From contig JBEKZX010000011.1 in assembly GCA_049509455.1 (NCBI GenBank), positions 1 to 45,767 on the forward strand: DNA of 45,767 nt. Reading direction: 5' to 3'. Each line of letters starts with the position of its first letter. Position 1 is the first letter of the stretch. This document shows, piece by piece, positions 27,052-29,845 of this stretch. Position numbers and translations under genes: made by a program. The notes below the pieces were generated by a model that had not been told where the DNA came from, made no database searches, and was given only the letters and a program-made list of their open reading frames with translations. The stretch is from Conexivisphaerales archaeon. Lineage in GTDB: Archaea > Thermoproteota > Nitrososphaeria > Conexivisphaerales > DTJL01.

Positions 27052-27345
27052 ATGAAGGATTACGGAAGGCAGATTTTCTGGCTGGACTACTTCGATTCAT
27101 CCCTGAGCAGGGAGTCCGGCAGGAGGGTGAGCCTCCCATTAGCAACCAAGAACCCCACGATAGATGAGCTGGCCGCAGCCGCGAGGAGGCTGGGATACGA
27201 GCCGCATGTGGAGAAGGCCCGGCACCCGACCAGGCCCACGAAGCCCTCCGGTTACATACAGGTGGAGAAGAAGAAGGGCAAAAAGGAGTTCCTTCTCGCC
27301 CTCGCGAAGGCCATGGCCGAAGGAAGGGCCCAGCAGAAACGTTGA
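27052..27345 (+). CDS. srp19: Signal recognition particle 19 kDa protein
   Basis: IFWLDYFDSSLSRESGRRV, HP..PSGYIQV. Confidence 0.93.
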   Translation: MKDYGRQIFWLDYFDSSLSRESGRRVSLPLATKNPTIDELAAAARRLGYEPHVEKARHPTRPTKPSGYIQVEKKKGKKEFLLALAKAMAEGRAQQKR

Positions 27346-27395
27346 TCTGGGCCAAGGGCAAGCTTAATACGGCGCACGCCTGCACCTTACCCGTT

Positions 27396-27620
27396 TTGCA
27401 GGAGATTGGGACCATCATCCGCAAGGCCCGCAGCGGCATGGTCATCGTGAGGCTGACTAAGGAACCCCACGAAGGACAGGTCCTCTTCGACTTCAAGGGG
27501 CGCTCGGTGGGCAGGGTCACCGAGATCTTCGGGCCAGTCAAGGGCGCCTACGCATCACTGACACCCCACACTGACAGGATCGAAGGATTAGTGGGGGAGA
27601 AGGTGTACTCGAGGAATTGA
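27396..27620 (+). CDS. gar1: H/ACA RNP subunit Gar1
   Basis: VGRVTEIFGPVKGAY; likely TTG at 27396 downstream of CTTAATA. Confidence 0.85.
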   Translation: MQEIGTIIRKARSGMVIVRLTKEPHEGQVLFDFKGRSVGRVTEIFGPVKGAYASLTPHTDRIEGLVGEKVYSRN

Positions 27621-28801
27621 GGACGAGGTTAGACAAGGACGGCGAACCCCAGCCGTCGAAGTGCCCTCAGTGCAACTCGCCCCTGATAGGCGACAGGGCC
27701 GCCGGCGAGGTGGTGTGCCCGACCTGTGGCTACGTCCTCCTTGATGAGGTGGAGTTCGAAGGTCCCGAGTGGAAGGCCGTCGACCCCGAAGACAAGATGA
27801 AGAAGAGCCGGGTGGGGGCCCCGCTGACCTATACCCTCCACGATTTCGGCCTGACGACCACCATCGACGGCAGTGGAGTTGATTCCCACGGCAACAGGAT
27901 AATCGGCGACGAGCGGGCGAAGCTTGAAAGGATGAAGACGTGGCAGTTCAGGCTCCGCACCATCGACAGCAAGGAACGGAGCATGTCGAACGTCCTCCAG
28001 AAGATCCATGAGATATCCGTGGGCCTCAACCTTCCCGGCAACGTGTCGGAGACGGCCGCCTACGTATTCAGGCAGTATTCGAAGCCCAACTTCTGTCGTC
28101 ATTGCAGGGAGGATGTGCAGCCCCCGGAGATTCCATTGTGCCTGACTTGCGGAATCGAGATCGTCAGGAAGTGCCCTCAGTGCGGCGTGAGAGGGAGCGT
28201 CGACGAGAGATACTGCCGCTACTGCGGAACCTCTCTGAAGAGCAACTGCGTGAAATGCGGGAAGGAGTATCCCACTGAGCCCTTCTGTCCGCGCTGCGGC
28301 ACCCCCCTCCACAGCAGGTCTAGGGGGAAGCAGGTGGCTGGGGTGGCTTCGGCGGCCATATATCTGGCATGCAGGAAGTGCGAGGTGAACAGGTCACTGG
28401 CGGAGGTGGCCGATAAGTCGTATCTGGACAAGAAGGTGGTGGCGAAGTACTACCGGCAGATGGTGAAGGAGATGGAGATGAGCAGCGTCCCTATGGCCTC
28501 GATTCAGAACCACATCTCCAAGCTCTTCAACAACCTCAACTCCACGATGAGGATGCCCGAGAAGGTGGAGCGGTTGGCCATCAACATGGCCACGAAGGCG
28601 TCGGGGGCTTCGATGAGTAGTGGGAGGTCGCCGGCTGGCCTGGCCGCGGCCTTCCTTTATGTCTCCGCCAACCTCCTCAACGAGCACCTCCCTCAGAGAG
28701 ATGTAGCCGAGGCGGCGGGAATCACCGAAGTGACCATCAGGAAGCGCTGCAAGGAGCTCTTCGAAAACTACAGTATCTCGGTGAAGGTACACTCTGCATG
28801 A
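27617..28801 (+). CDS. tfb: Transcription initiation factor B with internal zinc-ribbon insertion
   Basis: CPQC..CPTC ribbon, PEW..SRVGAP B-reader, two cyclin folds, HTH QRDVAEAAGITEVTIRKR. Confidence 0.93.
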   Translation: MRTRLDKDGEPQPSKCPQCNSPLIGDRAAGEVVCPTCGYVLLDEVEFEGPEWKAVDPEDKMKKSRVGAPLTYTLHDFGLTTTIDGSGVDSHGNRIIGDERAKLERMKTWQFRLRTIDSKERSMSNVLQKIHEISVGLNLPGNVSETAAYVFRQYSKPNFCRHCREDVQPPEIPLCLTCGIEIVRKCPQCGVRGSVDERYCRYCGTSLKSNCVKCGKEYPTEPFCPRCGTPLHSRSRGKQVAGVASAAIYLACRKCEVNRSLAEVADKSYLDKKVVAKYYRQMVKEMEMSSVPMASIQNHISKLFNNLNSTMRMPEKVERLAINMATKASGASMSSGRSPAGLAAAFLYVSANLLNEHLPQRDVAEAAGITEVTIRKRCKELFENYSISVKVHSA

Positions 28802-28878
28802 GCTAAAGTCATATTCAGAAAGAGCTTTTAGGAGGGAAATCGCTCAGATCATTTCGTACAGGCCAACCCGGAGGATTT

Positions 28879-29268
28879 GTGCATTTGCAAGAAGCGGATG
28901 AAGACCTCATCAGCAAGGTTTACCGGCTAGTCATAGAGAACGGCGAACCGGGGATACTTCAGAGCGAGCTCTGGAAGGTGCTCGGGCTGACCAGCAGGGA
29001 CGGCTCAAGGATCGCCTCCCGACTGGAGAAGAGGAAGCTCATAAACAGGGAGAAGGTCTTGGAGAGGGGAAGATGGACCTACAAACTCCTCCCCCTCGTC
29101 ATACCGATCGACACCAGCAGCATCGAGGAGGCCCCATGCATAAGGTGTCCCGACGAAGAGAGATGTTTCATTGACGGGGAGGTCAGCCCACTGACGTGCC
29201 TGAAGATCGAGAACTGGTTCAACCTGGAGTACCAGGTGAAAAACGGCGATGCGCCCGCTTCAAGCTAA
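28879..29268 (+). CDS. TFEbeta / Rpc34-like (winged helix plus 4-Cys cluster domain)
   Basis: GILQSELWKVLGLTSRDGSRI..LEKR and PCIRCP..C....SPLTCLKIENW. Confidence 0.8.
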   Translation: MHLQEADEDLISKVYRLVIENGEPGILQSELWKVLGLTSRDGSRIASRLEKRKLINREKVLERGRWTYKLLPLVIPIDTSSIEEAPCIRCPDEERCFIDGEVSPLTCLKIENWFNLEYQVKNGDAPASS

Positions 29269-29845
29269 GCGGGACCTCTACCGGCGCAAGGCTAGGGAAG
29301 AGGGCTACCGCAGCAGGGCGGCGTACAAGCTCATCCAGCTGGACGACAAGTTTGGGCTCATCCATGAAGGCGACACCATCCTTGACATAGGGAGCGCCCC
29401 GGGCGGCTGGCTGCAGGCTGAATCGGAGCGCGTGGGGCCCAAAGGGCGGGTCATAGGGATCGACATCAACCCCGTCGAACCCCCCTCCGGCAACGTGGAG
29501 ACGCTGATCATGGACATCACCAGCCCCGACGCGGCCGGCGAGCTACGTTCGAAGCTCAAAGATGGAGCCGACGCCGTCTTCTCCGACCTCTCACCCACCA
29601 TGATGGGAGTGTGGGAGGTGGACAGCGGACGGCAAATCGACATGACCAGAGCGGCCTTCGACATCGCCTGCAGCGTGCTAAAGCAGGGGAAGAACGGCGT
29701 ATTCAAGATATTCGAAGGGGAGTTCACGGAGGAGTTTGTGCGGTATGCGAAGCCCAGGTTCAAGGGCACGGATCTTGCGAAGCCCGAGGCCAGCAGGAAG
29801 GCGAGCAGCGAGCTCTACTTGGTGTGCCTCGGCTTCATGGGGTGA
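29249..29845 (+). CDS. rlmE: 23S rRNA 2'-O-methyltransferase RlmE/FtsJ
   Basis: YRSRAAYKL, DIGSAPGGW, SDLSP, KPEASR..SSELY. Confidence 0.95.
   Translation: MRPLQAKRDLYRRKAREEGYRSRAAYKLIQLDDKFGLIHEGDTILDIGSAPGGWLQAESERVGPKGRVIGIDINPVEPPSGNVETLIMDITSPDAAGELRSKLKDGADAVFSDLSPTMMGVWEVDSGRQIDMTRAAFDIACSVLKQGKNGVFKIFEGEFTEEFVRYAKPRFKGTDLAKPEASRKASSELYLVCLGFMG

What the first reader, a model, noticed from the sequence alone, without database searches (positions are those of the whole stretch)
28082..28315. TFB with a ~75-aa multi-zinc-ribbon module inserted in the first cyclin repeat
Between AAYVFRQYSK and RGKQVAGVASAAIYLACR, which are adjacent in canonical TFB (AAxIYRK..LxRGRS), six CxxC pairs are inserted in frame: CRHC, CLTC, CPQC, CRYC, CVKC, CPRC (28094-28297). 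That is enough for three Zn sites, similar to double-zinc-ribbon (DZR) modules. The N-terminal ribbon, B-reader, second cyclin fold and BRE-binding HTH are intact. The gene sits in the gar1-tfb position next to TFEbeta, suggesting a main TFB. There are no intein termini. Inference: a basal factor carrying a built-in interaction or metal/redox-sensing module.
Basis: partly seen in the sequence, partly recalled or inferred. Interest (0 to 1): 0.7.

Follow-up and report, generated by a model that had tools for sequence, protein, structure and literature searches.

The report
TFB with built-in triple zinc ribbon
In one genus of uncultured peat archaea, a copy of the basal transcription factor TFB carries a conserved, translated 75-residue block of three zinc ribbons inserted in the loop that normally touches promoter DNA just downstream of the TATA box, a layout I found in no other TFB and in no paper searched; what it does is untested.

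Summary
ORF 27617-28801 (+) is a complete TFB: N-terminal ribbon, B-reader/linker and two cyclin repeats. A clean 75-residue in-frame insertion (C160-R234, 28094-28318) has six CxxC knuckles and matches Pfam DZR.

It lies between helices BH2 and BH3 of cyclin repeat 1. The R-G-K just after it aligns with human TFIIB K152-G153-R154, the loop that contacts the BREd element.

It is not an assembly artefact, intein or untranslated insert:
- Contigs from two other peat-metagenome studies bridge both junctions.
- All five species of the genus carry it, with no indels.
- All 12 Cys are invariant in 23 sequences.
- dN/dS is 0.06-0.21 at near-saturated dS.

Positional orthologues in three sister genera and a second family share the S8e-SRP19-Gar1-TFB-TFEbeta-RlmE order but lack it. 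A profile-free search of 1.84 billion representatives found no other TFB with it.

The "main TFB" inference is doubtful. The family has a second, more conserved canonical TFB lineage. This genus has 7 TFB and 4 TBP genes, against about 2 and 1 in its sisters.

Function is inferred only. I favour an added DNA or initiation-complex contact downstream of TATA (about 0.4). Rivals are a protein-docking module, a zinc/redox switch and a tolerated passenger.

This is a new variant of a known kind.

The parts
27342..27620 (+). Gar1 (H/ACA RNP) gene. Its stop overlaps the TFB start (TTGA), so the two are probably co-transcribed and translationally coupled.
   Evidence: PF04410 E 1.8e-7; sequence read
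27617..28801 (+). TFB gene, 394 aa, TTG start; the positional orthologue of the gar1-linked TFB of related genera
   Evidence: gene callers of public sources use the same start
27662..27727 (+). Canonical N-terminal TFB zinc ribbon (C16, C19, C34, C37)
   Evidence: PF08271 E 6.6e-10; Cys invariant in 70 TFBs
27965..28093 (+). Cyclin repeat 1, helices BH1-BH2, up to the insertion point (residues 117-159)
   Evidence: AF2 helices 118-136 and 141-154; aligns to human TFIIB 107-146
28094..28318 (+). 75-residue insertion (C160-R234): three CxxC-x(10-12)-CxxC zinc ribbons
   Evidence: gap in alignment A1; Pfam DZR; AF2 beta-rich, pLDDT 72-81; dN/dS 0.06-0.21
28094..28150 (+). Ribbon 1 (C160, C163, C175, C178): acidic (net about -2), the most variable
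   Evidence: dN/dS 0.154
28172..28225 (+). Ribbon 2 (C186, C189, C200, C203): basic (net about +3)
   Evidence: dN/dS 0.161
28247..28297 (+). Ribbon 3 (C211, C214, C224, C227): basic (net about +3), as constrained as the TFB core
   Evidence: dN/dS 0.055
28322..28330 (+). R236-G237-K238, the equivalent of human TFIIB K152-G153-R154 (BREd recognition loop), directly after the insert
   Evidence: phmmer alignment to full-length human TFIIB; loop function from PMC4529316
28331..28768 (+). Rest of cyclin repeat 1 (BH3-BH5) and cyclin repeat 2 with the BRE-binding helix-turn-helix
   Evidence: PF00382; AF2 helices 240-384; Foldseek hits 1ais_B and 1d3u_B
28879..29268 (+). TFEbeta / RPC34-like gene (winged helix plus 4-Cys FeS domain), the conserved neighbour
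   Evidence: C-terminal 74-114 matches human RPC6 273-314, E 1.1e-4; synteny; PMC2770514

Best explanation
Shown: this is a real, translated, genus-specific domain insertion. A 75-residue module of three Cys4 zinc ribbons (DZR type) sits in the BH2-BH3 loop of cyclin repeat 1 of the gar1-linked TFB paralogue. That is immediately before the R-G-K that corresponds to the TFIIB loop contacting the minor groove just downstream of the TATA box (BREd). Everything else a TFB needs is intact. Inferred: because both ends of the module are anchored in a DNA-contacting loop, the folded module must project from the DNA-proximal face of cyclin repeat 1. I think its two basic ribbons (2 and 3) most likely make extra contacts with promoter DNA between the TATA box and the region that melts, or with the polymerase/TFE surface that faces that DNA. 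This would stabilise or tune TBP-TFB-DNA and pre-initiation complexes formed by this TFB. The place is comparable to that of the TFIIF RAP30/Tfg2 and Pol III C34 winged helices in eukaryotic complexes, for which no archaeal counterpart is described (my own knowledge). In a genus that has multiplied its TBP and TFB genes, the module may also give this paralogue a distinct promoter or partner preference.
For: Family and architecture. Insertion point: query R236-G237-K238 aligns with human K152-G153-R154. A loop of the first TFIIB repeat contacts BREd, and the G153Q:R154A mutant is defective (PMC4529316). Brf2 uses the same region to distort DNA at the downstream edge of TATA, and the authors place the C34 and Tfg2 winged helices opposite this site (PMC4671959). 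The RAP30 winged helix contacts BREd DNA above the protrusion (PMC7111264). Translated and selected: five species have no indels, with dN/dS 0.06-0.21 at dS 0.7-1.9; excluding the Cys codons it is still 0.16. Ribbon 3, which abuts the RGK loop, has dN/dS 0.055, close to the TFB core at 0.02-0.04. All 12 Cys are invariant in 23 sequences. Charge: ribbon 1 is about -2 and ribbons 2 and 3 about +3 each in all 8 sequences. Real DNA: contigs of other studies bridge both junctions. Lineage context: the insert is present in 5 of 5 species of the genus and absent in the syntenic orthologues of 3 sister genera and a second family. TFB and TBP are expanded in the same genus.
Against: No experiment or model places the module on DNA. 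I could not obtain coordinates or model DNA. Net charge is modest, and each Zn(Cys)4 site formally adds negative charge. tRNA promoters of two insert-bearing and two insert-less genomes show the same BRE/TATA and no extra conserved element downstream of TATA. That is a weak test, because it is unknown which TFB serves those promoters. DZR modules have no established activity. The insert-only model has no informative solved look-alike.
Confidence: 0.42

Rival explanations
1. Protein-docking module. The ribbons bind another protein rather than DNA, for example TFEalpha/beta, an RNA polymerase surface (protrusion or clamp), one of the four TBP paralogues, or a regulator. This would give the TFB paralogue its own partner.
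For: Many non-Cys surface residues are invariant in ribbon 3 (EYPxEPF, PLH). The genus has 4 TBP and 7 TFB genes, so pairing specificity could matter. In eukaryotic complexes the equivalent place holds a winged helix that bridges to TFIIE (PMC7111264). The TFEbeta gene is the conserved neighbour, and PMC2770514 proposed that an RPC34-linked TFB paralogue might pair with it.
Against: No partner is identified. TFEbeta adjacency is equally conserved in genera without the insert, and TFEbeta shows no matching lineage-specific change.
Confidence: 0.25
2. Zinc or redox switch. Oxidation of the 12 thiolates, or zinc shortage, unfolds a module seated in the DNA-contact loop. This inactivates the TFB and hands promoters to the canonical TFB paralogues.
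For: Three Cys4 sites sit at a DNA-contact loop. There is a precedent of a redox-sensing TFIIB-like factor, Brf2 (PMC4671959). The habitat is peat and wetland, where redox conditions fluctuate (the fluctuation is my own knowledge). Alternative TFBs are available.
Against: Cys4 zinc ribbons are mostly structural. No reactive-Cys signature or extra Cys is seen. The canonical N-terminal ribbon of every TFB would be equally oxidisable. Nothing here tests it.
Confidence: 0.15
3. Tolerated passenger. A DZR cassette landed in a permissive surface loop and is kept folded only because an unfolded loop would harm TFB, with no function of its own.
For: The insert evolves 3-5 times faster than the TFB core. 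It is confined to one genus. No donor, partner or promoter correlate was found.
Against: dN/dS is 0.16 even without the Cys codons, and 0.055 for ribbon 3, at dS about 1. There has been no length change in any of 23 sequences. The loop is not a neutral place, since it contacts DNA in TFIIB and Brf2.
Confidence: 0.13
4. Not part of the mature protein or not real: an assembly chimera, an intein, or an intron removed from the mRNA.
For: No RNA or peptide data were available.
Against: Contigs from other studies bridge both junctions, and five species genomes carry the insert. There is amino-acid-level purifying selection with invariant Cys. No Hint or intein hit was found, and the insert is too short for one. 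No flanking repeats were found.
Confidence: 0.02

Closest known systems
Canonical archaeal TFB (e.g. Pyrococcus woesei TFBc in 1AIS/1D3U) and eukaryotic TFIIB
   Same: N-terminal zinc ribbon, B-reader, B-linker, two cyclin repeats and the helix-turn-helix of repeat 2.
   Different: A 75-residue triple zinc ribbon interrupts the BH2-BH3 loop of repeat 1. The NCBIfam TFIIB score falls below its cut-off (268.7 against 384). The match is split around the insert, which probably contributes.
BREd recognition loop of human TFIIB (G153/R154) and the minor-groove element of Brf2 (A108/R110)
   Same: The same loop of the first cyclin repeat. The G-K/R dipeptide is retained right after the insert.
   Different: In the known factors the loop is a few residues long. 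Here it carries a whole folded module.
Brf2, a TFIIB-related factor with a redox-sensing cysteine
   Same: A TFIIB-family factor with a built-in regulatory element at the DNA interface.
   Different: Brf2 uses one reactive Cys in a C-terminal 'molecular pin', not zinc ribbons in repeat 1. No redox evidence exists here.
Winged helices of TFIIF RAP30/Tfg2 and Pol III C34 at BREd
   Same: Extra DNA-anchoring modules located at or opposite the DNA just downstream of TATA, next to TFIIB repeat 1. This is a possible functional analogy.
   Different: They are separate proteins with a different fold. The analogy is an inference and no homology is implied.
Pfam DZR (PF12773) / Zn_Ribbon_1 modules
   Same: The tandem CxxC...CxxC ribbons score above the curated cut-offs.
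   Different: DZR modules are usually terminal parts of assorted bacterial and archaeal proteins. Among the hits examined none is a TFB.
TFB with a ~210-residue domain inside its N-terminal zinc ribbon
   Same: Another lineage-restricted, translated domain insertion in a TFB.
   Different: Different place (the ribbon, not the cyclin repeat), a different inserted domain and a different phylum. I did not check it.
Multiple TBP/TFB sets of Halobacteria
   Same: A lineage-specific multiplication of basal-factor genes, seen here as 7 TFB and 4 TBP genes partly in adjacent pairs.
   Different: A different phylum. I know of no zinc-ribbon insert in the haloarchaeal factors (my own knowledge).

Membership tests
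TFB/TFIIB | N-terminal Cys4 zinc ribbon (PF08271) | tested here: met
   38.8 bits against a cut-off of 29, residues 15-54; the four Cys are invariant in 70 homologues
TFB/TFIIB | Two cyclin-like repeats (PF00382) | tested here: met
   97.4 bits, two stretches; AF2 shows the ten helices; Foldseek hits 7nvu_M, 1ais_B and 1d3u_B with E 1e-13 to 1e-9
TFB/TFIIB | Conserved B-reader and B-linker motifs between ribbon and core | tested here: met
   P50, W52, R65, G67, P69, H75, D76, G78, L79 and T81 are invariant with insert-less orthologues
TFB/TFIIB | BRE-binding helix-turn-helix in repeat 2 | tested here: met
   The T370-E371-V372-T373-x-R375-x-R377 motif is invariant and aligns to the P. woesei TFB helix-turn-helix
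TFB/TFIIB | NCBIfam TFIIB subfamily score above the cut-off | tested here: not met
   268.7 bits against 384. The match is split into two stretches around the insert, which probably contributes. This does not affect family membership, which rests on the rows above.
TFB/TFIIB | Supports TBP- and promoter-dependent transcription | not testable with these tools
   Needs in vitro transcription
Housekeeping ('main') TFB of the organism | Sole or most conserved TFB, used at most promoters | tested here: inconclusive
   It is the only member of the gar1-linked orthologue group in the genome. A second, canonical lineage is more conserved between genera (85-88%) and has several copies.
Pfam DZR / zinc-ribbon | Tandem CxxC-x(n)-CxxC ribbons scoring above the gathering threshold | tested here: met
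   PF12773 54.7 bits (cut-off 27.3), PF13240 40.7 (25), PF18912 32.1 (27) for the insert alone
Pfam DZR / zinc-ribbon | Binds zinc, one ion per four Cys | not testable with these tools
   Needs metal analysis. The 12 invariant Cys are consistent with three sites.
Intein | Hint domain with N-terminal Cys/Ser and C-terminal His-Asn plus a nucleophile | tested here: not met
   No Hint or intein family among the Pfam hits listed up to E = 1. The insert ends ...LHSR|S and has 75 residues.

The most novel reading that the evidence does not exclude
The module is a functional addition to the archaeal pre-initiation complex. One version is a TFB-borne zinc-ribbon array that clamps or senses the DNA between the TATA box and the melting region, taking the place that TFIIF and C34 winged helices occupy in eukaryotes. 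The other is an array whose zinc or redox state switches this TFB on and off, so that promoters pass between paralogues of an expanded TBP/TFB network.
Probability: 0.25. Interest if true: 0.8.

Novelty: new variant of a known kind. Interest (0 to 1): 0.55.

Why it matters
TFB/TFIIB is one of the most conserved proteins of archaeal and eukaryotic transcription, and its core is rarely interrupted. This is a natural variant with a folded metal-binding module in the loop that reads DNA next to the TATA box, in a lineage that has also multiplied its TBP and TFB genes. It offers a compact test case for two questions: how basal factors acquire promoter or condition specificity, and whether archaea can fill the TFIIF-like position in the initiation complex by adding a domain to TFB. 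It also warns annotators. One public record calls a member of this protein's 90%-identity cluster only a 'zinc ribbon domain-containing protein', and the NCBIfam TFIIB model misses its cut-off.

Tried and rejected
1. Word-indexed search with the insert alone found only the genus's own cluster, so it was too insensitive to say more.
2. The ESM Atlas shows no cluster of 50 or more members combining TFIIB and DZR. Small clusters are invisible to it.
3. No donor was found in the own genome. The best other match to the insert has E 0.005, although many DZR-bearing ORFs exist. The nearest DZR proteins elsewhere come from Methanobrevibacter, Clostridia and a plant.
4. No RNA holder is listed among the public runs, so expression is untested.
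5. Promoter comparison: upstream regions of tRNA genes were taken from two insert-bearing genomes (G000, G004) and two insert-less genomes (G006, and the equally GC-rich G008). All show BRE plus TATA about 22-30 bases upstream and no conserved element downstream of TATA. An apparent 'AC' after the TATA box in the 8-mer model vanished with a 6-mer model, so I treat it as an alignment artefact.
6. High GC as a correlate was rejected. G008 has 63% GC at the locus and no insert.
7. Complex prediction of the insert with TFEbeta gave no verdict (score 0.00). This is not evidence either way.
8. Fold searches with the insert-only model gave nothing above noise. The best Foldseek match is the PolD DP2 zinc modules (E 0.03), and all VIA-align scores are Z < 3.
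9. No target-site duplication or inverted repeat flanks the insert.
10. Full-text searches for a TFB with a zinc-ribbon insertion found no description. The Gagatemarchaeaceae genome paper does not mention TFB.

Full report
WHAT IS THERE

The ORF at 27617-28801 on the + strand encodes 394 residues from a TTG start that overlaps the stop of the upstream Gar1 gene. Pfam finds the TFIIB zinc ribbon (PF08271, residues 15-54) and the TFIIB repeat twice (PF00382). NCBIfam finds the TFIIB subfamily model at E 5.8e-80, split into two stretches and below its cut-off.

It also hits Zn_Ribbon_1 and DZR_2.

WHERE THE INSERT LIES

Alignment with the closest homologues shows a single clean gap of 75 residues. 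The insert-less proteins read ...YSKKGF ARGRS..., and this one reads ...YSKPNF, then C160 to R234, then SRGKQ.... [quoted passage not shown]

An AlphaFold2 model built on 70 sequences keeps all cyclin helices. BH2 ends at residue 154 and BH3 starts at 240. The segment between is beta-rich with pLDDT 72-81. The model matches TFIIB and TFB chains of solved initiation complexes, and 1AIS and 1D3U.

In the phmmer alignment to full-length human TFIIB, R236-G237-K238 pair with K152-G153-R154. A loop of the first TFIIB repeat makes sequence-specific contact with the BRE downstream of TATA, and the G153Q:R154A mutant is defective in this (PMC4529316). [quoted passage not shown] The module is therefore inserted in the DNA-contacting BH2-BH3 loop, directly before the retained G-K.

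IS IT REAL AND TRANSLATED

Public peat and wetland metagenomes hold the gene. Contigs of two runs other than the likely source bridge both junctions with no difference (27827-29300 and 27578-28532), and two more bridge one junction each.

All five species of the genus carry the insert at 89-91% protein identity. In total 23 distinct sequences from three 90% clusters have the same length and twelve invariant Cys.

Among the five species synonymous divergence is near saturation (dS 0.7-1.9). Even so, the insert has no indel and a dN/dS of 0.06-0.21. Without the Cys codons the value is still 0.16. By ribbon it is 0.154, 0.161 and 0.055, against 0.02-0.04 for the TFB core.

This pattern requires translation of the segment in this frame. 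It excludes an intron or a spacer. No intein family matches, and the insert is too short for one. No repeats flank it. GC and GC3 of the insert equal those of the gene.

WHO HAS IT

The gene order S8e-SRP19-Gar1-TFB-TFEbeta-RlmE is the same in the genus, in three sister genera of the family and in a second family of the order. The TFB of all of those lacks the insert. The downstream 129-residue protein matches the FeS domain of human RPC6, as expected for TFEbeta.

So the insert was gained once, in the ancestor of one genus, in the positional orthologue of the gar1-linked TFB. Relatives are labelled Conexivisphaerales or Nitrososphaerota by NCBI. The peat habitat, 58% GC and about 2 Mb are compatible with the Group I.1c family Gagatemarchaeaceae described in PMC10640624, but I did not test that placement.

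A full HMMER scan of 1.84 billion representative proteins used the insert plus short cyclin flanks as query. It returned the genus's own cluster at E 5e-51, and then only generic DZR proteins from E 2e-14 on. Ten of these hits, chosen by length or match position, were checked against Pfam, and none carries a TFIIB repeat. The ESM Atlas has no TFIIB+DZR cluster. The paper library returned no description. No donor was found.

CONTEXT THAT CHANGES THE READING

The genome holds other TFBs of a canonical type (...YRKALEKGLVRGRSI...), on contigs C20, C102, C70 and C122.

Sister genera have two TFB genes, one canonical and one gar1-linked. Two of them also have weak core-only relatives. Each sister genus searched has one TBP gene.

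The best-assembled genome of the insert-bearing genus has seven TFB genes and four TBP genes. Several lie in adjacent TBP-TFB pairs within ordinary chromosomal surroundings.

The canonical lineage is 85-88% identical between genera. The gar1-linked lineage is only about 60% identical outside the insert. PMC2770514 had already pointed out that the RPC34/TFEbeta gene is often co-transcribed with one TFB paralogue and speculated about specialisation.

HOW IT MOST LIKELY WORKS (INFERENCE)

Both ends of the module are tied into a loop that lies on the minor groove next to the TATA box, so the folded module must sit at the DNA-proximal face of repeat 1. Ribbons 2 and 3 are basic (about +3 each) and ribbon 1 is acidic. 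Ribbon 3, which leads into ...HSRSRGK..., is as constrained as the core.

I therefore favour an added contact with promoter DNA between TATA and the melting region, or with the polymerase/TFE surface facing it. This is the place where eukaryotic complexes put the RAP30/Tfg2 or C34 winged helix (PMC7111264; PMC4671959).

I give this about 0.4. The rivals are a protein-docking role (0.25), a zinc/redox switch with Brf2 as a loose precedent (0.15) and a tolerated passenger (0.13). An artefact or a removed element is practically excluded.

A comparison of tRNA promoters in genomes with and without the insert showed no new element. Fold searches with the isolated module were uninformative.

VERDICT

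- The object is a new variant of a known kind: TFB with a lineage-specific domain inserted in its DNA-contact loop.
- It is confined to one uncultured genus, and its function is untested.

The scan's earlier notes hold no look-alike of this insert. They do record another TFB with a different insertion in another phylum, and extra TBP copies in this same genome.

Noticed in passing
G004:C3:164206-173229 (L125), G004:C3:512244-513930; own genome contigs C20, C29, C50, C70, C78, C102, C122, C139: The insert-bearing genus has multiplied its basal factors. It has 7 TFB and 4 TBP genes, against about 2 and 1 in the sister genera searched. Several lie as adjacent TBP-TFB pairs among ordinary metabolic genes. 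In the window's genome these near-identical copies sit at contig ends and probably break the assembly.
   Followed up: partly
window 27617-27620 and 27342-27345: The listed ORFs of SRP19, Gar1 and TFB overlap by four bases (TTGA), with TTG as the first possible start codon of both Gar1 and TFB. This suggests one translationally coupled transcript. The true Gar1 start may lie about 17 codons further down, because homology begins there.
   Followed up: no
window 27659-27673 and 28169-28183: The first knuckle of the N-terminal ribbon and the first knuckle of insert ribbon 2 are both KCPQC, encoded by the same 15 bases (AAGTGCCCTCAGTGC). All five species share the pentapeptide at both places, with synonymous differences in three of them. 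Sister genera have RCPYC or RCPFC at the N-terminal ribbon. This may be coincidence or a trace of the insert's origin.
   Followed up: partly
window 28787-28798 (C-terminus) and about 28541-28552: Besides the insert, the genus's TFB differs from most of the insert-less orthologues aligned in two ways. It has lost an acidic C-terminal tail of about 10-12 residues that ends in EKEF in seven of them, and it has four extra residues in the loop after the first helix of cyclin repeat 2 (NNLNSTMRMPEK against NNLG-ISPR).
   Followed up: no
own genome C50:843-1331: One TBP copy matches the TBP repeat model only from position 11 in its first repeat. This agrees with an earlier first-stage note of a TBP lacking its first beta-strand.
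   Followed up: no
window 28879-29268: Neither Pfam nor NCBIfam recognises the TFEbeta/RPC34-like protein; there is only a weak MarR_2 hit. It is identified through a match of its 4-Cys C-terminal part to human RPC6. It is 66-94% identical across two families of the order.
   Followed up: partly
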